Assembly (NCBI GenBank): GCA_000004985.1
Contig: GG739069.1
DNA length: 8,453 nt
Strand: one strand, 5' to 3'
Origin: Naegleria gruberi
Lineage: Eukaryota
Position numbers and translations under genes: made by a program. Below the pieces are notes generated by a model. It saw only the letters and a program-made list of their open reading frames with translations, did no database searches and was not told the DNA's origin. Positions 1 through 8,453 of the stretch are shown piece by piece. Each line of letters begins with the position of its first letter. The first letter of the stretch is position 1.

Positions 1-739
1 TAGAAAACAGTTGGTACATGTTATCCAACAGATTTTCCATATTATTCAATTCTTTCATAAATCTGGCCGAAACTAGAGTCTTGTGATGGACTAAACTAGC
101 ATAAAATCTATTTCTCAAGGTTTTTTCGTTATCCAAATAAAAATTAATAAGGGTATGATAATAGCTTGCTTTGATTTGATTTCCTTCTGCGACACAAGTC
201 ATAAACATCAAGTGACAAGAGGCACCCCAATAAAACTGTGTGATATGATCCACAGAAAGTGCTGCAATTTCACATTCTGCCCTTCTCAAAATATAATCCA
301 CATAGTCCAATTCACCCAACAGTTGTGAACTCAATGTCAAAATACCCAAATAGAAAGCATAAATACATCTCAATTCCCCCTTTGATTTTATCCATCCATC
401 ATTATGAAGCAATTCAACATCTTCCCCTCTCTCAAAACAATGCAAGTAATTATTCACAAAATGTACAAGTTTAGCCCTCTCAATCAGAGGATGAATACCA
501 CAAATGAAAGTAAAGTACAACTCAATCACCCTCATAGGTGTAATTGGAGAGGGTTTAGTTGTAAATATTCCAGCACTACCATTTGCATTATTGGTCATTG
601 TAATATCGGTACTACTCTGATCATCGGAAGTCTTTTTCTTAATAGTATCATCGGATGATGATGACGATGACTTGGATTTATCCTTTGATTTTAATGAATA
701 TAATTCAGAACCCTTTCCTCTCTTTTGTGGTGTATTGTA
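1..739 (-). CDS. Zn(2)-Cys(6) (Gal4-type) fungal transcription factor, exon 3, partial (continues past left edge)
   Basis: The reverse complement of 1-739 is open for 246 codons with no stop (YNTPQKRGKGSELYSLKSKDKSKSSSSSSDDTIKKK...VIELYFTFICGIHPLIERAKLVHF...NMENLLDNMYQLFS). It starts directly after a TTATAG acceptor whose TAG is in frame. The IELYF..HP.. stretch resembles the start of the fungal-specific TF middle domain. The ORF track misses it only because there is no stop inside the window. The track's plus-strand ORFs 259-474 and 404-658 are antisense shadows of this exon. Confidence 0.85.
653..670 (-). repeat. Imperfect trinucleotide tract encoding Ser6 within exon 3
   Basis: The plus strand reads GGATGATGATGACGATGA. 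On the coding strand this is TCA TCG TCA TCA TCA TCC (Ser x6). Confidence 0.6.
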
Positions 740-872
740 CTATAAGAAGTTTTCCATTCACATATTCATATGAATAGTGTAATTATTATTGTAATTAAAT
801 ATATCGAAATATGAAGTGATAATATTTTGATGATGGGGGTATAAGGAATATTTTCAATTAATTGAAACGTAC
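740..872 (-). other. Spliceosomal intron 2 of the Zn(2)-Cys(6) gene (133 nt, phase 0)
   Basis: A GTACGT donor follows ...GSECV immediately, and unspliced reading hits TAA at the fifth codon. The interior is A/T-rich. The TTATAG acceptor ends at 740. Splicing gives ...SECV|YNTPQKRG, the usual C.Y....KRG continuation after a zinc cluster. Confidence 0.7.
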
Positions 873-929
873 AACACATTCCGATCCGACTGCTAAACAC
901 TTTGAGCATCCACTTAATTTCTTATCACA
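873..929 (-). CDS. Zn(2)-Cys(6) transcription factor, exon 2 (second half of the zinc cluster)
   Basis: These 57 nt encode CDKKLSGCSKCLAVGSECV. Joined to exon 1 they give ACIRCRKLHKKCDKKLSGCSKCLAVGSECVY, which is C-X2-C-X6-C-X6-C-X2-C-X6-C. This aligns position for position with the Gal4 cluster as I remember it ([31 protein letters not shown]). Confidence 0.85.
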
Positions 930-978
930 CTATTTTGATGAAGTTTTTAAATGAAAGTTTTAAAAGATGAAAACAAAC
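930..978 (-). other. Spliceosomal intron 1 of the Zn(2)-Cys(6) gene (49 nt, phase 0)
   Basis: The donor is GTTTGT (starts at 978) and the acceptor AAAATAG ends at 930. I count 10 G/C in 49 nt. Unspliced reading gives the ORF-track tail VCFHLLKLSFKNFIKIV* and breaks the cysteine spacing. Splicing places Cys3 (TGT, 929-927) exactly 6 residues after Cys2. Confidence 0.85.
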
Positions 979-1134
979 CTTTTTATGCAATTTTCTACAT
1001 CGAATACATGCAATGGGATGGCAATCTCCACTAAACGTCAATTGATTCATTTGCTGATGTTCCTGTTGTTTGTCATTACTTTCACTATTATCGGGAGGAG
1101 ATGATGATGATGAAGGATCCACTTGATGAAACAT
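979..1134 (-). CDS. Zn(2)-Cys(6) transcription factor, exon 1 (start codon and first two cysteines)
   Basis: The ATG at 1134-1132 sits in an A-run context (AAAAAAATG), with an in-frame TAA five codons upstream. The 52 codons read MFHQVDPSSSSSPPDNSESNDKQQEHQQMNQLTFSGDCHPIACIRCRKLHKK and end at AAG|GTTTGT. Confidence 0.9.
1099..1113 (-). repeat. (TCA)4 TCT trinucleotide tract encoding Ser5 in exon 1
   Basis: The plus strand reads AGATGATGATGATGA. On the coding strand this is TCA TCA TCA TCA TCT. Confidence 0.6.
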
Positions 1135-1465: not shown

Positions 1466-1777
1466 ATGATTGGTGCTGGTGGTATGCCAGGTGCCGGTGC
1501 CGATGCTGCTGGTTCTTCCGATGATGCTCCTCCATCTGGTGCTCAACCAAAACTCTCTCGACTCTTACAAATTGAACAAGATTTTGCTGCAAAAGATGAC
1601 CTTGGTATTATTTCCGAAATACATGATAGTAACCAAAAGATTCTGTTGATATCATGCCACACCTTGAATGCGGATCATTCTCTCAACACGGATCATGTAA
1701 TAGTCAAGATTGATACCATCATTAGATCATACAAGATCCGAAATCCCAATACCACAATCAAGGCACCTCTCATGATT
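1466..1777 (+). CDS. 5' end of an unidentified protein-coding gene (G/A/P-rich N-terminus), truncated by the N gap
   Basis: The ATG at 1466 is in the context GAAAAAAATG, the same style as the ATGs at 1134 and 6959. The frame is open for 104 codons up to the N run. All three frames have stops in the ~120 nt upstream. The protein starts MIGAGGMPGAGADAAGSSDDAPPSGAQPK. I count 50 G/C in the 90 nt of 1466-1555, well above the surrounding sequence. I recognise no family, and internal introns cannot be excluded. Confidence 0.55.
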
Positions 1778-4700
1778 NNNNNNNNNNNNNNNNNNNNNNN
1801 NNNNNNNNNNNNNNNNNNNNNNNNNNNNNNNNNNNNNNNNNNNNNNNNNNNNNNNNNNNNNNNNNNNNNNNNNNNNNNNNNNNNNNNNNNNNNNNNNNNN
1901 NNNNNNNNNNNNNNNNNNNNNNNNNNNNNNNNNNNNNNNNNNNNNNNNNNNNNNNNNNNNNNNNNNNNNNNNNNNNNNNNNNNNNNNNNNNNNNNNNNNN
2001 NNNNNNNNNNNNNNNNNNNNNNNNNNNNNNNNNNNNNNNNNNNNNNNNNNNNNNNNNNNNNNNNNNNNNNNNNNNNNNNNNNNNNNNNNNNNNNNNNNNN
2101 NNNNNNNNNNNNNNNNNNNNNNNNNNNNNNNNNNNNNNNNNNNNNNNNNNNNNNNNNNNNNNNNNNNNNNNNNNNNNNNNNNNNNNNNNNNNNNNNNNNN
2201 NNNNNNNNNNNNNNNNNNNNNNNNNNNNNNNNNNNNNNNNNNNNNNNNNNNNNNNNNNNNNNNNNNNNNNNNNNNNNNNNNNNNNNNNNNNNNNNNNNNN
2301 NNNNNNNNNNNNNNNNNNNNNNNNNNNNNNNNNNNNNNNNNNNNNNNNNNNNNNNNNNNNNNNNNNNNNNNNNNNNNNNNNNNNNNNNNNNNNNNNNNNN
2401 NNNNNNNNNNNNNNNNNNNNNNNNNNNNNNNNNNNNNNNNNNNNNNNNNNNNNNNNNNNNNNNNNNNNNNNNNNNNNNNNNNNNNNNNNNNNNNNNNNNN
2501 NNNNNNNNNNNNNNNNNNNNNNNNNNNNNNNNNNNNNNNNNNNNNNNNNNNNNNNNNNNNNNNNNNNNNNNNNNNNNNNNNNNNNNNNNNNNNNNNNNNN
2601 NNNNNNNNNNNNNNNNNNNNNNNNNNNNNNNNNNNNNNNNNNNNNNNNNNNNNNNNNNNNNNNNNNNNNNNNNNNNNNNNNNNNNNNNNNNNNNNNNNNN
2701 NNNNNNNNNNNNNNNNNNNNNNNNNNNNNNNNNNNNNNNNNNNNNNNNNNNNNNNNNNNNNNNNNNNNNNNNNNNNNNNNNNNNNNNNNNNNNNNNNNNN
2801 NNNNNNNNNNNNNNNNNNNNNNNNNNNNNNNNNNNNNNNNNNNNNNNNNNNNNNNNNNNNNNNNNNNNNNNNNNNNNNNNNNNNNNNNNNNNNNNNNNNN
2901 NNNNNNNNNNNNNNNNNNNNNNNNNNNNNNNNNNNNNNNNNNNNNNNNNNNNNNNNNNNNNNNNNNNNNNNNNNNNNNNNNNNNNNNNNNNNNNNNNNNN
3001 NNNNNNNNNNNNNNNNNNNNNNNNNNNNNNNNNNNNNNNNNNNNNNNNNNNNNNNNNNNNNNNNNNNNNNNNNNNNNNNNNNNNNNNNNNNNNNNNNNNN
3101 NNNNNNNNNNNNNNNNNNNNNNNNNNNNNNNNNNNNNNNNNNNNNNNNNNNNNNNNNNNNNNNNNNNNNNNNNNNNNNNNNNNNNNNNNNNNNNNNNNNN
3201 NNNNNNNNNNNNNNNNNNNNNNNNNNNNNNNNNNNNNNNNNNNNNNNNNNNNNNNNNNNNNNNNNNNNNNNNNNNNNNNNNNNNNNNNNNNNNNNNNNNN
3301 NNNNNNNNNNNNNNNNNNNNNNNNNNNNNNNNNNNNNNNNNNNNNNNNNNNNNNNNNNNNNNNNNNNNNNNNNNNNNNNNNNNNNNNNNNNNNNNNNNNN
3401 NNNNNNNNNNNNNNNNNNNNNNNNNNNNNNNNNNNNNNNNNNNNNNNNNNNNNNNNNNNNNNNNNNNNNNNNNNNNNNNNNNNNNNNNNNNNNNNNNNNN
3501 NNNNNNNNNNNNNNNNNNNNNNNNNNNNNNNNNNNNNNNNNNNNNNNNNNNNNNNNNNNNNNNNNNNNNNNNNNNNNNNNNNNNNNNNNNNNNNNNNNNN
3601 NNNNNNNNNNNNNNNNNNNNNNNNNNNNNNNNNNNNNNNNNNNNNNNNNNNNNNNNNNNNNNNNNNNNNNNNNNNNNNNNNNNNNNNNNNNNNNNNNNNN
3701 NNNNNNNNNNNNNNNNNNNNNNNNNNNNNNNNNNNNNNNNNNNNNNNNNNNNNNNNNNNNNNNNNNNNNNNNNNNNNNNNNNNNNNNNNNNNNNNNNNNN
3801 NNNNNNNNNNNNNNNNNNNNNNNNNNNNNNNNNNNNNNNNNNNNNNNNNNNNNNNNNNNNNNNNNNNNNNNNNNNNNNNNNNNNNNNNNNNNNNNNNNNN
3901 NNNNNNNNNNNNNNNNNNNNNNNNNNNNNNNNNNNNNNNNNNNNNNNNNNNNNNNNNNNNNNNNNNNNNNNNNNNNNNNNNNNNNNNNNNNNNNNNNNNN
4001 NNNNNNNNNNNNNNNNNNNNNNNNNNNNNNNNNNNNNNNNNNNNNNNNNNNNNNNNNNNNNNNNNNNNNNNNNNNNNNNNNNNNNNNNNNNNNNNNNNNN
4101 NNNNNNNNNNNNNNNNNNNNNNNNNNNNNNNNNNNNNNNNNNNNNNNNNNNNNNNNNNNNNNNNNNNNNNNNNNNNNNNNNNNNNNNNNNNNNNNNNNNN
4201 NNNNNNNNNNNNNNNNNNNNNNNNNNNNNNNNNNNNNNNNNNNNNNNNNNNNNNNNNNNNNNNNNNNNNNNNNNNNNNNNNNNNNNNNNNNNNNNNNNNN
4301 NNNNNNNNNNNNNNNNNNNNNNNNNNNNNNNNNNNNNNNNNNNNNNNNNNNNNNNNNNNNNNNNNNNNNNNNNNNNNNNNNNNNNNNNNNNNNNNNNNNN
4401 NNNNNNNNNNNNNNNNNNNNNNNNNNNNNNNNNNNNNNNNNNNNNNNNNNNNNNNNNNNNNNNNNNNNNNNNNNNNNNNNNNNNNNNNNNNNNNNNNNNN
4501 NNNNNNNNNNNNNNNNNNNNNNNNNNNNNNNNNNNNNNNNNNNNNNNNNNNNNNNNNNNNNNNNNNNNNNNNNNNNNNNNNNNNNNNNNNNNNNNNNNNN
4601 NNNNNNNNNNNNNNNNNNNNNNNNNNNNNNNNNNNNNNNNNNNNNNNNNNNNNNNNNNNNNNNNNNNNNNNNNNNNNNNNNNNNNNNNNNNNNNNNNNNN

Positions 4701-5892
4701 NNNNNNNNNNNNNNNNNNNNNNNNNNNNNNNNNNNNNNNNNNNNNNNNNNNNNNNNNNNNNNNNNNNNNNNNNNNNNNNNNNNNNNNNNNNNNNNNNNNN
4801 NNNNNNNNNNNNNNNNNNNNNNNNNNNNNNNNNNNNNNNNNNNNNNNNNNNNNNNNNNNNNNNNNNNNNNNNNNNNNNNNNNNNNNNNNNNNNNNNNNNN
4901 NNNNNNNNNNNNNNNNNNNNNNNNNNNNNNNNNNNNNNNNNNNNNNNNNNNNNNNNNNNNNNNNNNNNNNNNNNNNNNNNNNNNNNNNNNNNNNNNNNNN
5001 NNNNNNNNNNNNNNNNNNNNNNNNNNNNNNNNNNNNNNNNNNNNNNNNNNNNNNNNNNNNNNNNNNNNNNNNNNNNNNNNNNNNNNNNNNNNNNNNNNNN
5101 NNNNNNNNNNNNNNNNNNNNNNNNNNNNNNNNNNNNNNNNNNNNNNNNNNNNNNNNNNNNNNNNNNNNNNNNNNNNNNNNNNNNNNNNNNNNNNNNNNNN
5201 NNNNNNNNNNNNNNNNNNNNNNNNNNNNNNNNNNNNNNNNNNNNNNNNNNNNNNNNNNNNNNNNNNNNNNNNNNNNNNNNNNNNNNNNNNNNNNNNNNNN
5301 NNNNNNNNNNNNNNNNNNNNNNNNNNNNNNNNNNNNNNNNNNNNNNNNNNNNNNNNNNNNNNNNNNNNNNNNNNNNNNNNNNNNNNNNNNNNNNNNNNNN
5401 NNNNNNNNNNNNNNNNNNNNNNNNNNNNNNNNNNNNNNNNNNNNNNNNNNNNNNNNNNNNNNNNNNNNNNNNNNNNNNNNNNNNNNNNNNNNNNNNNNNN
5501 NNNNNNNNNNNNNNNNNNNNNNNNNNNNNNNNNNNNNNNNNNNNNNNNNNNNNNNNNNNNNNNNNNNNNNNNNNNNNNNNNNNNNNNNNNNNNNNNNNNN
5601 NNNNNNNNNNNNNNNNNNNNNNNNNNNNNNNNNNNNNNNNNNNNNNNNNNNNNNNNNNNNNNNNNNNNNNNNNNNNNNNNNNNNNNNNNNNNNNNNNNNN
5701 NNNNNNNNNNNNNNNNNNNNNNNNNNNNNNNNNNNNNNNNNNNNNNNNNNNNNNNNNNNNNNNNNNNNNNNNNNNNNNNNNNNNNNNNNNNNNNNNNNNN
5801 NNNNNNNNNNNNNNNNNNNNNNNNNNNNNNNNNNNNNNNNNNNNNNNNNNNNNNNNNNNNNNNNNNNNNNNNNNNNNNNNNNNNNNNNNNNN
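1778..5892. other. Run of 4,115 N (assembly gap or masked sequence)
   Basis: The N run is uninterrupted in the sequence as given. The X-filled ORFs 1466-6058 (+) and 1770-5936 (-) in the track are artefacts of it. Confidence 0.99.
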
Positions 5893-5893
5893 G

Positions 5894-6616
5894 CTAATAG
5901 GTGATATGAGAACACAATCAAAAATCCGTCAAGCACTTCACCACGTCGAACAGGGAGCTGCTGAATCTTATACTCCTCTCCTCAAATATCGTCAAGAAGA
6001 TTTACGTGTTTATCAAGTTGCTAAGAAATTGCATACCATGTGGCAAGAAAGCGACTAGGAAAAGCCAATTACATATGATGATATCGAATTTGCCTTCAAC
6101 TTGTACAAAGTACATTGCGAAAATATGAAAATGATGAAGAGTGAATACTCTCTTGAATATACCAAGTTGATGAAGGTTCTCATTAATATTGTTTTGGTAA
6201 ACAGAGAATATTGCAAGGTTGCCAAACAAGTTCTCAATGAATCAACAAAGAAATACAAGAAGGATATTTCATCAATTGAATCGGCAATTGAATCTAAATT
6301 GAAGGAATATGAATCAACTCAAAGTAATCAAGACAAACTTTTAATGCTCAGACTCTCCTCATACACCATTCAATCTATTTCTAAATTAGACTCTGATTTG
6401 GATGCTTATGAAAATATGGTTGTCCAATGTGTGAAATTGATGTATCCAGAAAGATGTATTATCTATGATTTGGACCTTTGTAAAAAACTTCTTTACATTT
6501 GCCGTACTACAACAGCTTCTTCCCTTTTGGAAAAGAGCAAGGAAATTATGGATGTTTCCTCAGTTCACTATGATAGAGAAAAACTCTTCCAACAAGCTAT
6601 TATTAGGGACAATTAA
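5894..6616 (+). CDS. 3' end of an unidentified protein-coding gene, with one in-frame TAG at 6056-6058
   Basis: One frame is open from the gap edge to TAA 6614-6616, apart from a single TAG (...KKLHTMWQESD*EKPITYDDIEFAFNLYKV...). The 185 codons after the TAG are K/E/L-rich and partly coiled-coil-like (SIESAIESKLKEYESTQSNQDKLL). The track's start at 6101 is a TTG called under bacterial rules. I recognise no family. This could be one gene with an in-frame intron or read-through, or a gene disrupted by a nonsense change. Confidence 0.6.
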
Positions 6617-6630
6617 GGTCATCAAATGTA

Positions 6631-6673
6631 GCCCGTCTAGCTCAGTCGGTAGAGCGTCAGACTGTTAATCTGC
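6631..6673 (+). pseudogene. tRNA-like 5' half (anticodon GUU, Asn-type), lacking variable loop, T arm and 3' acceptor strand
   Basis: The sequence parses as GCCCGTC TA GCTC AGTCGGTA GAGC G TCAGA CTGTTAA TCTGC. That is the acceptor 5' strand, a canonical D arm and box A (TAGCTCAGTCGGTAGAGC), and an anticodon stem of 4 bp plus one U:C. The 7-nt loop has U33, GUU and A37. What follows is CAACAAATTTTGAAATGAAAAAAAG, with no GGTTCGA-type T arm and no GACGGGC acceptor complement. Confidence 0.7.
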
Positions 6674-6689: not shown

Positions 6690-6696
6690 AAAAAAA
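6690..6696 (-). terminator. Pol III terminator (T7) of the 5S rRNA gene
   Basis: The minus strand reads ...GGTGCTGTAGTC TTTTTTT C. The oligo-T run lies immediately at the 5S 3' end. Confidence 0.8.
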
Positions 6697-6814
6697 GACT
6701 ACAGCACCACAGGTTCCCAAGTTGTCTCCAACCTCAGTACTGATGTGGCTCGACGATGCTTAACTTCTCAAATCGGACGGGATGAGGTGCATTCATCGTG
6801 ATATGGCCGTAGCC
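6696..6814 (-). rRNA. 5S ribosomal RNA gene
   Basis: The minus strand reads GGCTACGGCCATATCACGATGAATGCACCTCATCCCGTCCGATTTGAGAAGTTAAGCATCGTCGAGCCACATCAGTACTGAGGTTGGAGACAACTTGGGAACCTGTGGTGCTGTAGTCT (119 nt). It carries the conserved eukaryotic 5S blocks CGGCCATA, CCCGTCCGAT, GAAGTTAAGC, AGTACT, GGGAA and GGTGCTGTAG. The 5' and 3' ends pair as helix I (GGCTACGG with CTGTAGTC, allowing G-U). A T7 run follows. The exact ends are good to 1-2 nt. Confidence 0.92.
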
Positions 6815-6958: not shown

Positions 6959-7387
6959 ATGTATAATCACTGTCATCAGCACAATGATACGTTTGATCGT
7001 GGTGATGATTGGAGCGAGAATTGTCCCGATTTTGCTCTCCTCTCTCCAACAAACAGTTCATTCAAAAATCTCTCCTCCGATATTATTTGTTATATTGTTT
7101 TTCAATATTTGGATTACAAAACAATTACAAGTTGTTTATTATTGAATAAGGAATATTATGGAAAGATTGCAAATAATAGATTTCTTTTTATTAATATGTA
7201 TAACGAGTTATTTATTAATAAGAGAATTGCATTATCATCAGTGCAACTACCAGTACTATTTAATTGTGTATCTTTCAGTTCAGCAAATAATGAGTTATCC
7301 AGTAATTGTGAGAGAATGCTTTTGCAATCTGGGAGAATGACAGATGAAAAATTGGAATGTATTAGAAAAAAGTGGCAAGAATCAATT
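6959..7387 (+). CDS. F-box-like protein segment (first part of a putative F-box/LRR gene), ends at an in-frame TAG
   Basis: The ATG at 6959 follows an A9 run. The 143 codons include FKNLSSDIICYIVFQYLDYKTITSCLLLNKEYYGKIANNRFLF. This fits a degenerate F-box pattern (L..[DE][IL][IL]..I...L.....[IL]....L.NK..Y.......[FL][FW]), with the usual Pro and Trp replaced. TAG at 7388-7390 follows, and the same frame then reopens. Confidence 0.65.
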
Positions 7388-7390
7388 TAG

Positions 7391-7715
7391 AAAATGACTC
7401 AACGCAGCACTAGTATTAAGAATGAAAAACAACTACTGTTGAATATTATCAAAAAGATTATCAAAGACAGATTGGATATTTTAAAATTCTTTAAAAATGA
7501 ATTGAAAAGTGCACAAATAGGAGATGGAAAAATGAGACCAGCAGTTGAACTGGTCAAGGAAACACAGGACATTATTGAAAAATTGAAAACTTTTGAAGAA
7601 TTATCGTTGAGCTATCCAAGTTCTAATTACTTTCATGAATCGTTTAATAATTATATAATAGAACAACAGGAAGCTTACGAACCAATTGAGTTGAATAATA
7701 TTATTTCCATACGAG
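7391..7715 (+). CDS. Middle segment of the putative F-box/LRR gene (same frame as 6959-7387)
   Basis: The frame is open for 108 codons immediately after the TAG (KMTQRSTSIKNEKQLLLNIIKKIIKDRLDILKFFKNELKSAQ...EPIELNNIISIR). It ends at CGAG|GTTAGT. The track calls it as a separate ORF from the ATG at 7394, only 3 nt after the stop. That is too close for an independent eukaryotic gene. Confidence 0.55.
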
Positions 7716-7760
7716 GTTAGTTTCTTCTTCTTCTTTCAAGTTTGAAAAAATTTTATGTAG
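7716..7760 (+). other. Spliceosomal intron (45 nt, phase 1) in the F-box/LRR gene
   Basis: The donor is GTTAGT, followed by the pyrimidine tract TTTCTTCTTCTTCTTTC, and the acceptor is ATGTAG ending at 7760. I count 11 G/C in 45 nt. The in-frame TAG at 7718-7720 lies inside the donor. Splicing gives ...IISIR-E-NTKSTNDYV... Confidence 0.7.
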
Positions 7761-8453
7761 AAAATACCAAGTCAACCAATGATTATGTACGAAATTCCTG
7801 TTATACTTCTATTTCAATACTAAAATATTTCAAAAATCTTAAATTTCTCTATCTAGCTGGATATTGTGATTTTCAAGAGCCAGTTAAATTGAACAACTTG
7901 AAAGTATTAATTATAAGAACAGGAGTAATGGAAAATTCCATGTTACAATCAATTCTTAACTGCTCATTCCCACAATTGAAACATTTAGAATTATGGTTAG
8001 GGTCACCCTGTCAAATAAGAAGTAAAATGATCGACCTGTCACATTACAATAATGATATTACAGAAAAAAATTTAACAGAACTGCTTTCAGAATCAGATAA
8101 TGGAAAGTATCCAACATTAGAATATTTTGGTCTGAGAAATACTTATAATATTCCACAACTCTTACCACTTATTATGAAATCAAATATTGCAAAAAGAGTT
8201 AGAGTATTGGATTTATCATTATCAGGTTCAATAACAGAAAATGATGCTCTATTTATTGCAGAGCAAATCCAATTACAGAGAAAAGAATTCACATTGTTAG
8301 AATTTGTTGATTTGAGATATAATAATATTCAACTTGAAAATAATCCGAATAGGGATATCGTGATTCAACAAATTGAAGAGGAATTCAACAAAATAGGAAT
8401 TGCAGTTGATGTATCAAAATCTGATTATTGTAGAATGCAGAACATGAAATTGT
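7761..8453 (+). CDS. Leucine-rich-repeat C-terminal region of the F-box/LRR gene, partial (continues past right edge)
   Basis: I checked 230 consecutive codons one by one and found no stop: NTKSTNDYVRNSCYTSISILKYFKNLKFLYLAGYCDFQEPVKLNNLKVLIIRTGVMENSMLQSILNCSFPQLKHLELWLGSP...YPTLEYFGLRNTYNIPQLLPLIMKSNIAKRVRVLDLSLSGSITENDALFIAEQI...LLEFVDLRYNNIQLENN...IGIAVDVSKSDY. LxxLxLxx(N/G) repeats recur. The ORF track omits it because it has no stop in the window. Confidence 0.8.

What the first reader, a model, noticed from the sequence alone, without database searches (positions are those of the whole stretch)
6008..6058. In-frame TAG at 6056-6058 joins two same-frame open segments of the post-gap gene
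The frame reads ...RQEDLRVYQVAKKLHTMWQESD-TAG-EKPITYDDIEFAFNLYKV... and stays open for another 185 codons. The distance from the TAG to the next in-frame ATG (6125) is too short for an independent eukaryotic promoter. The mundane explanation is a 51-nt phase-0 intron at 6008-6058 (GTTTAT...CTAG). Its length and donor resemble the verified 49-nt GTTTGT intron, and its TAG would be the acceptor. Against this, I count 20 G/C in those 51 nt (39%) versus 20-24% in the verified short introns. There is also no pyrimidine tract, and the donor lacks G at +5. The other options are a nonsense mutation or assembly error, programmed read-through, bicistronic re-initiation, or UAG used as a sense codon.
Basis: partly seen in the sequence, partly recalled or inferred. 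Interest (0 to 1): 0.5.

Follow-up and report, generated by a model that had tools for sequence, protein, structure and literature searches.

The report
Stop codon in a duplicated gene fragment
The in-frame TAG is a single C-to-A change inside a truncated, 99.6%-identical spare copy of a Naegleria gruberi gene whose intact copy elsewhere in the genome has a serine codon there, so it is an ordinary broken gene fragment, not an intron or a recoding signal.

Summary
In detail: TAG at 6056-6058 interrupts one reading frame. It has 54 open codons back to the N gap and 185 open codons forward to TAA at 6614-6616.

The window is not fungal. It is a complete 8,453-bp unplaced scaffold of the amoeboflagellate Naegleria gruberi NEG-M.

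Window 5919-6601 is 680/683 identical to codons 118-345 of an intronless 369-codon N. gruberi gene. That gene is EFC46284.1, which sits on a 530-kb scaffold. Homology stops abruptly at both ends of the segment, so the "post-gap gene" is an internal fragment lacking its start and its last 24 codons.

The intact copy reads TCG (Ser) where the fragment reads TAG. N. fowleri, N. lovaniensis and a metagenomic Naegleria also have Ser there, and Willaertia has Ala. The proposed 51-nt intron is conserved coding sequence and is refuted.

Best reading: a nonsense substitution in a recently duplicated gene fragment (a pseudogene) on a redundant small scaffold. A base-calling error at 6057 cannot be excluded. 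This is ordinary.

One oddity remains. A second in-frame TAG (7388-7390), in a neighbouring F-box-like gene, also sits at a conserved Ser position.

The parts
1778..5892 (.). Scaffold gap (4,115 N) joining contig 1 (1-1777) and contig 2 (5893-8453)
5893..5918 (+). 26 nt at the start of contig 2 with no similarity to the parent gene (5' breakpoint of the copy at 5918/5919)
5919..6601 (+). 683-bp internal fragment of an intronless 369-codon N. gruberi gene (EFC46284.1 / P0007). It corresponds to parent CDS nt 353-1035, codons 118-345, and is 680/683 identical to the intact copy on L005.
6056..6058 (+). The in-frame TAG. Base 6057 is A here and C in the intact copy (TCG, Ser164). N. fowleri has TCT and the metagenomic Naegleria has TCC.
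6085..6085 (+). Second difference from the intact copy: C vs T (ATC/ATT, synonymous, codon 173). The outgroups have ATT, so the change is on the window copy.
6538..6538 (+). Third difference: C vs A (AGC Ser vs AGA Arg, codon 324). The outgroups have AGA, so the change is on the window copy. It is present in the 163-aa NCBI model that is annotated on two scaffolds.
6602..6616 (+). Unrelated sequence after the 3' breakpoint. It happens to supply ...(I)RDN-TAA in place of the parent's last 24 codons (VICKESEQDSKILSHPYELERPIL).
6125..6616 (+). NCBI gene model 'predicted protein' (EFC35681.1 = P0004, 163 aa). This is the longest ATG-initiated ORF downstream of the TAG, i.e. an annotation by-product of the fragment.
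6631..6673 (+). 5' part of a tRNA (acceptor 5' strand, D arm, anticodon arm, anticodon GTT). It is cut off at about position 43 with no T arm or 3' acceptor strand. It is part of the patchwork flanking the fragment.
6696..6814 (-). Full-length 5S rRNA gene (105 bits), followed on its own strand by a T7 run

Best explanation
The window is a small, redundant, unplaced scaffold of the Naegleria gruberi NEG-M assembly. Its 'post-gap gene' is a 683-bp internal piece (codons 118-345 of 369) of an intronless Naegleria/Willaertia-specific gene. The intact copy of that gene lies on a 530-kb scaffold, in the same gene neighbourhood as in other Naegleria.

The piece was copied recently (99.6% identity) into a patchwork locus. 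That locus runs: unrelated 26 nt, the fragment, 29 nt, half a tRNA, a 5S rRNA gene, and an F-box-like gene. The fragment has no start codon, no promoter and no native 3' end, so it is a non-processed pseudogene fragment.

The TAG is a C-to-A substitution of the parental TCG (Ser164) codon. It is one of three point differences, all derived on the copy. Nothing decodes or splices it.

Shown:
- the identity of the organism;
- the existence of the intact copy with Ser at this position;
- the exact breakpoints;
- the three differences;
- conservation of the 'intron' as protein.

Inferred:
- The copy is a real piece of the genome rather than an assembly chimera. The same 163-aa ORF, including the RDN tail and the AGC variant, is annotated on a second scaffold.
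- The A at 6057 is a real mutation rather than a base-calling error.
For: Organism and scaffold
- ORF 6125-6616 is 100% identical to N. gruberi EFC35681.1.
- EFC35684.1 (P0010), a 'partial' protein on a contig of exactly 8,453 bp, equals my spliced translation of the window's minus-strand Zn2Cys6 gene.

Intact parent
- The 90% cluster of P0004 contains P0007 (EFC46284.1, 369 aa, on a 530,355-bp scaffold). It reads ...HTMWQESDSEKPITYDD....
- An ENA contig encoding exactly P0007 (L005) aligns to window 5919-6601 with 680/683 identities and no similarity outside that span.
- L005, N. fowleri and a metagenomic Naegleria all have Rad21/Rec8 downstream of the gene. The window does not.

The codon
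- It is TCG in the parent, TCT in N. fowleri and TCC in the metagenomic Naegleria.

Not an intron
- The gene is a single exon in all intact copies, and the 51 nt encode conserved residues.

Redundancy of the scaffold
- The Zn2Cys6 gene in contig 1 is 307/311 identical to full-length EFC39009.1 on a 304-kb scaffold.
- The two differ by two substitutions and two in-frame Ser-codon indels, the signature of real allelic or paralogous variation.

Junction seen twice
- P0004 carries two accessions on two contigs, of 8,453 and 14,084 bp.
Against: - I could not read the rest of the NEG-M assembly or its traces. Neither the second copy of the junction nor the read support for A at 6057 was inspected directly.
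- No independent assembly (ENA, Logan, JGI) shows the fragment, whereas the intact gene is seen in an ENA contig.
- The fragment starts only 26 nt from a contig end next to a gap, where Sanger consensus quality is typically poor.
- All three differences are derived on the window copy. That fits base-calling errors as well as neutral decay.
- A second TAG on the same contig also falls at a conserved Ser. That is an unlikely coincidence under purely random mutation.
Confidence: 0.75

Rival explanations
1. Base-calling or assembly error. The fragment copy is real or chimeric, but the A at 6057 is a consensus error in a low-coverage contig end of a tiny Sanger scaffold, and the true base is C (TCG).
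For: - The TAG lies 164 nt from a contig end that borders a 4,115-N gap.
- The difference from the parent is a single base.
- All three differences are on the window copy.
- No independent assembly holds the TAG version.
Against: - The AGC (Ser324) difference and the RDN tail are shared by an identical 163-aa model on a second scaffold, so this copy's differences are not all random errors.
- Both models start at the same ATG just downstream of the TAG. That is what is expected if both scaffolds carry the stop.
- Contig 1 differs from its main-scaffold counterpart by in-frame codon indels, which points to real variation.
Confidence: 0.18
2. Broken allele rather than extra copy. Contig 2 is the second haplotype of the parent locus, in which rearrangements removed the 5' third and the 3' end of the gene, and the TAG is a sheltered loss-of-function mutation in a heterozygous, mostly clonal amoeba.
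For: - The ~0.4-1% divergence between this scaffold and main-scaffold sequence is of allelic magnitude.
- Naegleria is described as mainly a heterozygous diploid (PMC9928731, read).
Against: - Two breakpoints 683 bp apart are needed.
- Neither flank returns to the parental neighbourhood (no Rad21/Rec8 downstream, no gene 5' part).
- Contig 1 corresponds to a different main scaffold (304 kb versus 530 kb).
Confidence: 0.15
3. A 51-nt phase-0 spliceosomal intron at 6008-6058.
For: - GT...AG ends.
- The length is a multiple of 3 and similar to the real short introns in this window: 49 nt at 978-930 and 45 nt at 7716-7760.
Against: - The 17 codons are conserved protein in five homologs, and the stop aligns with Ser/Ala.
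- The intact N. gruberi copy is identical here except for base 6057 and is a continuous ORF.
- The gene is intronless in all intact copies.
- GC content is 39%, against an AT-rich composition for the real introns.
Confidence: 0.01
4. UAG is decoded (read-through, or a natural tRNA-Ser(CUA) amber suppressor), so the TAGs at 6056 and 7388 are tolerated sense codons for serine.
For: - Both in-frame TAGs on contig 2 sit at conserved Ser positions.
- TCG is a rare codon, 3-7% of the one-step precursors of TAG.
- Only 2 of 219 well-aligned columns of the F-box alignment are conserved Ser.
- No gene in the window ends in TAG.
Against: - The fragment cannot encode the protein with or without decoding, because it has no start and no native end. 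Its TAG therefore needs no decoding.
- The intact copy in the same genome uses TCG.
- Other N. gruberi genes seen here have no in-frame TAG: P0007, P0012, P0008, Rad21 on L005 and the window's Zn2Cys6.
- TAG is an annotated terminator in 3/8 N. lovaniensis genes and 1/5 metagenomic Naegleria genes examined.
- There is no tRNA with a CTA anticodon in the window.
- A full-text search found no paper that reports a variant code or read-through in Naegleria.
- The 3' context TAG-GAA-AAG is not a known read-through context (own knowledge).
Confidence: 0.02

Closest known systems
Non-processed (duplicated) pseudogene fragments produced by segmental duplication
   Same: - Near-identical (99.6%) partial copy of a gene that is intact elsewhere in the same genome.
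- Abrupt homology breakpoints inside the CDS.
- Missing start and end.
- A disabling nonsense substitution.
- A spurious short ORF annotated from it.
   Different: The duplication mechanism and the genomic address are unknown, because the copy sits on an unplaced 8.4-kb scaffold. Only 3 substitutions have occurred, so decay has barely begun.
Redundant small scaffolds / haplotigs in heterozygous Sanger whole-genome assemblies
   Same: - A tiny scaffold with an internal sized gap.
- Its genes are 99% copies of genes on large scaffolds.
- In-frame indel polymorphisms typical of alleles.
   Different: A simple haplotig would stay collinear with one main scaffold. Here contig 1 and contig 2 match genes on two different main scaffolds, and the match in contig 2 ends inside the gene.
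Gene-fragment capture by transposons (Helitrons, Pack-MULEs) or patchwork 'filler' DNA at repaired breaks
   Same: A mosaic of unrelated short pieces (gene fragment, 43-nt tRNA piece, 5S gene) joined at sharp junctions within 200 bp.
   Different: No terminal repeats, target-site duplications or transposon proteins were found in contig 2. The left side is hidden by the gap. This is a resemblance only and was not tested further.
Natural amber suppression by tRNA-Ser(CUA) (e.g. yeast SUP-RL1/SUP61-type or E. coli supD suppressors; own knowledge)
   Same: TCG-to-TAG is the codon-level mirror of a CGA-to-CUA anticodon change. Both TAGs here replace Ser.
   Different: No suppressor tRNA was found, the intact gene uses TCG, and the fragment is non-functional regardless. 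This is only the 'novel case', not the explanation adopted.

Membership tests
Spliceosomal intron | The sequence is absent from the mature coding sequence, so orthologs and paralogs lack the corresponding residues | tested here: not met
   All 17 codons of 6008-6058 align to conserved residues in five homologs and in the intact N. gruberi copy.
Spliceosomal intron | GT...AG borders, with composition and length like the other introns of the genome | tested here: inconclusive
   The borders are GT..AG and the length is 51 nt. The real introns in the window are 49, 133 and 45 nt and are AT-rich, whereas this stretch is 39% GC.
Duplicated (non-processed) pseudogene fragment | High nucleotide identity to an intact parent gene elsewhere in the same genome | tested here: met
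   Identity is 680/683 to the copy that encodes exactly EFC46284.1, which NCBI places on a 530-kb NEG-M scaffold. The parent DNA I read is an ENA contig encoding the identical protein, not the NEG-M scaffold itself.
Duplicated (non-processed) pseudogene fragment | Truncation and/or disabling mutation relative to the parent | tested here: met
   It lacks codons 1-117 and 346-369, and TCG164 has become TAG.
Duplicated (non-processed) pseudogene fragment | Located at a different locus from the parent (loss of synteny) | tested here: met
   The parent, N. fowleri and the metagenomic Naegleria all have Rad21/Rec8 downstream. The window has a tRNA piece, a 5S gene and an F-box-like gene instead.
Duplicated (non-processed) pseudogene fragment | Not expressed as a functional protein | not testable with these tools
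   No RNA-seq or proteomic data are available here.
Processed pseudogene (retrocopy) | Includes the mRNA 3' end with a poly(A) tract and flanking target-site duplications | tested here: not met
   The copy ends 24 codons before the stop, with no poly(A) and no flanking direct repeats. Absence of introns is uninformative because the parent is intronless.
Stop-codon reassignment (UAG as sense) | In-frame UAG in intact, conserved genes at positions of one amino acid | tested here: inconclusive
   There are two TAGs at conserved Ser columns. One of them is in a non-functional fragment, and five other N. gruberi genes examined have none.
Stop-codon reassignment (UAG as sense) | A cognate tRNA with anticodon CUA, and UAG not used as a terminator | not testable with these tools
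Related Naegleria use TAG as an annotated stop.
Programmed stop-codon read-through | The stop codon itself is conserved in orthologs, with a conserved downstream extension | tested here: not met
   The orthologs and the intact paralog have a sense codon (Ser/Ala), not a stop.

The most novel reading that the evidence does not exclude
Both in-frame TAGs on this contig (6056 and 7388) replace highly conserved serines. The first differs from the intact copy only by TCG to TAG. The most novel reading not excluded is that N. gruberi NEG-M tolerates UAG at serine positions. That could happen through a tRNA-Ser with a CUA anticodon (a natural amber suppressor, or an incipient UAG-to-Ser reassignment), so that such alleles escape purifying selection. 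A less exotic variant is a strong C-to-A mutational bias at T-C-G (CpG) sites in this 5mC/TET-containing organism.
Probability: 0.02. Interest if true: 0.8.

Novelty: already known. Interest (0 to 1): 0.1.

Why it matters
Mostly as a caution. A striking in-frame stop joining two long open segments turns out to be a nonsense change in a spare gene fragment on a redundant scaffold.

- The NCBI model built from it (EFC35681.1 / EFC35943.1, 163 aa) is an annotation artefact that should not be counted as a gene.
- The organism was misjudged as fungal because Naegleria has Zn2Cys6 regulators and short GT-AG introns.
- The only point that could matter more widely is the unexplained coincidence of two TAGs at conserved serine codons. 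That is cheap to test on the full assembly.

Tried and rejected
- **Intron at 6008-6058.** Rejected by homology.
- **Intron removing the second TAG (7388).** I enumerated all in-frame GT..AG candidates of 30-200 nt. Every one deletes the conserved KWQES or neighbouring conserved residues.
- **Retrocopy.** There is no poly(A), no target-site duplication and no 3' end.
- **Complete tRNA.** ARAGORN finds none. Rfam matches only tRNA model positions 1-43 convincingly. The 70 nt do not fold better than shuffles, z = 0.34.
- **Conserved tRNA/5S neighbourhood.** There is no 5S or tRNA at the orthologous loci of either gene in other Naegleria.
- **Independent sightings of the TAG or TCG 30-mer in JGI metagenomes.** 0 hits.
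- **Fetching the NEG-M scaffolds themselves.** P0004 and P0009 are not in the contig index, so the 14,084-bp sister scaffold could not be read.
- **Fritz-Laylin et al. 2010.** Not held in the library.
- **Pfam.** It gives no domain for the parent protein, so its NCBI name 'methyl-accepting chemotaxis protein' is unsupported.
- **Literature searches.** They found no paper that reports stop-codon recoding in Naegleria.
- **Repeats in contig 2.** Nothing meaningful.

Full report
**1. The observation**

The frame through 5894-6616 reads LIGDMRTQSKIRQALHHVEQGAAESYTPLLKYRQEDLRVYQVAKKLHTMWQESD*EKPITYDDIEFAFNLYKV...IIRDN*.

- TAG is at 6056-6058.
- 185 sense codons follow, up to TAA at 6614-6616.
- The next in-frame ATG is at 6125.
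- 6008-6058 is a 51-nt GT...AG stretch with 20 G/C.
- The frame is open upstream only to 5893, the first base after a 4,115-N gap at 1778-5892.

**2. The organism**

The ORF from 6125 is 100% identical to an NCBI 'predicted protein' of Naegleria gruberi (P0004).

A second N. gruberi protein, EFC35684.1 (P0010, 'partial'), is recorded on a contig of exactly 8,453 bp, which is the window's length. Its sequence equals my spliced translation of the minus-strand Zn2Cys6 gene in the window. That gene has exons 1134-979, 929-873 and 739-1, and introns of 49 and 133 nt.

The window is therefore a whole small unplaced scaffold of strain NEG-M, a heterolobosean amoeboflagellate, not a fungus.

**3. What the 'post-gap gene' is**

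Homologs of 360-396 aa exist in N. fowleri, N. lovaniensis, a metagenomic Naegleria and Willaertia magna. They align across the TAG without a gap.

- The TAG column is Ser in the three Naegleria and Ala in Willaertia.
- The codons are TCT (N. fowleri) and TCC (metagenomic Naegleria).

The decisive result came from listing the 90% cluster of P0004. It also holds P0007 = EFC46284.1, a 369-aa N. gruberi NEG-M protein on a 530,355-bp scaffold. P0007 reads ...KKLHTMWQESDSEKPITYDD....

An ENA contig (L005) encodes exactly P0007 as a single 1,110-nt exon, with Rad21/Rec8 downstream. N. fowleri and the metagenomic Naegleria have the same neighbour.

Aligning L005 with the window shows 680/683 identical bases over window 5919-6601. 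This equals parent CDS nt 353-1035, codons 118-345. There is no similarity on either side.

The three differences are:

| Window position | Window | Intact copy | Effect |
|---|---|---|---|
| 6057 | A (TAG) | C (TCG) | Ser164 to stop |
| 6085 | C (ATC) | T (ATT) | synonymous, codon 173 |
| 6538 | C (AGC) | A (AGA) | Arg324 to Ser |

In all three cases the outgroups agree with the intact copy, so the changes are on the window copy.

The 26 nt between the gap and 5919 are foreign to the gene. So is everything from 6602 on, including the RDN-TAA that closes the ORF. The parent instead continues ...VICKESEQDSKILSHPYELERPIL.

**4. Consequences for the interpretations**

- **Intron.** The 51 nt are conserved coding sequence of an intronless gene, so the intron reading is refuted.
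- **Read-through, re-initiation or sense decoding.** These are unnecessary. The segment lacks the first 117 and last 24 codons and has no start of its own. The 163-aa NCBI model is simply the longest ATG ORF after the stop.

The simplest account is a very recent duplicated gene fragment (a non-processed pseudogene) carrying a C-to-A nonsense substitution.

**5. Real or artefact?**

For a real copy:

- The identical 163-aa product, with the AGC variant and the RDN tail, carries two GenBank accessions on two contigs, of 8,453 and 14,084 bp. The 3' junction and at least one of the point differences are therefore seen twice.
- Both models start at the ATG just after the TAG.
- Contig 1's Zn2Cys6 gene differs from the full-length main-scaffold copy (EFC39009.1, 304-kb scaffold) by two substitutions and two in-frame Ser-codon indels in 311 aa. 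That looks like genuine allelic or paralogous variation.

For an artefact:

- The scaffold is tiny.
- The fragment begins 26 nt from a contig end beside a gap.
- No independent assembly shows the fragment, while the intact gene is seen in ENA.

I could not fetch the NEG-M scaffolds or traces. My estimates are overlapping shares, not a partition that sums to 1:

- about 0.75-0.8 that the fragment and its TAG are real;
- about 0.2 that base 6057 is an error;
- within 'real', an unresolved minority share for a rearranged second allele rather than an extra copy.

**6. Surroundings**

- Right after the fragment come 29 nt, then the first ~43 nt of a tRNA with anticodon GTT. Rfam scores it 25 bits, E = 0.0015, truncated. 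ARAGORN finds no tRNA, and there is no cloverleaf fold.
- Then come 22 nt and a complete 5S rRNA gene on the minus strand (6696-6814, 105 bits), with a T7 run after its 3' end.
- Neither RNA gene occurs at the orthologous loci in other Naegleria.

This sharp-edged mosaic is what one sees in duplicated or repaired, poorly assembled regions. I found no transposon hallmarks.

**7. A second in-frame TAG**

The gene from 6959 to the end of the window is F-box-like. Its N. lovaniensis homolog P0006 is named 'F-box domain-containing protein' by UniProt, and the Pfam F-box-like hit is weak.

- It has a 45-nt intron at 7716-7760, at the same position as the 60-nt intron of the N. lovaniensis gene.
- Its first exon contains TAG at 7388-7390.
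- No in-frame GT-AG intron can remove that TAG without deleting conserved residues.
- In a seven-sequence alignment the TAG column is Ser in five of six homologs.
- Only 2 of 219 well-aligned columns are that kind of conserved Ser.
- No N. gruberi protein model exists for this gene anywhere.

TCG makes up only 3-7% of the one-step precursors of TAG in N. gruberi coding sequence at hand. Two TAGs at conserved serines is therefore an a-posteriori coincidence of roughly 1 in 1,000.

I cannot explain it. The options are chance, a C-to-A bias at TCG/CpG sites, or tolerance of UAG at Ser through a tRNA-Ser(CUA).

The last option has a low prior:

- The first TAG is in a dead fragment, so it needs no decoding.
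- The intact copy uses TCG.
- Five other N. gruberi genes seen here have no in-frame TAG.
- Related Naegleria terminate genes with TAG.
- A full-text search found no paper that reports a variant code in Naegleria.

I give it about 2%.

**8. Verdict**

This is an ordinary feature: a nonsense codon in a truncated, near-identical duplicate of a gene, on a redundant unplaced scaffold. Interest is low. The only loose end worth a quick genome-wide check is the Ser/TAG coincidence.

Noticed in passing
window 7388-7390 (gene 6959-8453+): A second in-frame TAG joins ORFs 6959-7390 and 7394-7720 of an F-box-like/LRR-like gene. It aligns with Ser in 5 of 6 homologs (TCA in N. lovaniensis), and no in-frame GT-AG intron can remove it without deleting conserved residues. 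No N. gruberi protein model exists for this gene. Both TAGs are preceded by TGGCAAGAA (W-Q-E).
   Followed up: partly
window 7716-7760: The F-box-like gene has a 45-nt phase-1 intron (GTTAGT...TGTAG), at the same position as the 60-nt intron of the N. lovaniensis ortholog. The frame-2 TAG at 7718 lies inside it. A longer 141-nt intron (to 7856) would delete residues that are conserved in N. lovaniensis.
   Followed up: yes
window 6631-6673 (+): A truncated tRNA gene: the first ~43 nt (acceptor 5' strand, D arm, anticodon arm, anticodon GTT = Asn), with no T arm or 3' acceptor strand anywhere nearby. It is joined directly to the 3' flank of the 5S gene.
   Followed up: partly
window 6696-6814 (-): A complete 5S rRNA gene (Rfam 105 bits) with a T7 terminator-like run on its strand. 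It lies outside any rDNA unit. It is absent from the orthologous loci of both neighbouring genes in N. fowleri, N. lovaniensis and the metagenomic Naegleria.
   Followed up: partly
window 1-1134 (-): A Zn2Cys6 (Zn_clus) transcription-factor gene in an amoeboflagellate, with introns of 49 nt (978-930) and 133 nt (872-740). It is a 99% copy of full-length EFC39009.1 on a 304-kb scaffold. Further partial copies (EFC36074.1, EFC36076.1) lie on a 33.9-kb scaffold, so this region is represented several times in the assembly.
   Followed up: partly
window 1466-1777 (+): The pre-gap ORF (104 codons, MIGAGGMPGAGADAAGSSDD...) starts with strongly biased GGT/GCT/CCA codons. It has no Pfam hit and no homolog or N. 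gruberi model in the protein database. The apparent 1,530-aa ORF 1466-6058 is only an artefact of translating the N gap.
   Followed up: partly
P0007 / L005 261-1370: The intact parent protein is named 'methyl-accepting chemotaxis protein' in NCBI. It has no Pfam domain, and homologs were found only in Naegleria and Willaertia, so the name looks unfounded.
   Followed up: partly
window 1-20 (-): At the very end of the scaffold the Zn2Cys6 frame reads ...NMYQLFS, whereas the other copies read ...NMYQLFFYS. This suggests a one-base miscount in a T run at the scaffold edge. It is inferred from the proteins only.
   Followed up: no
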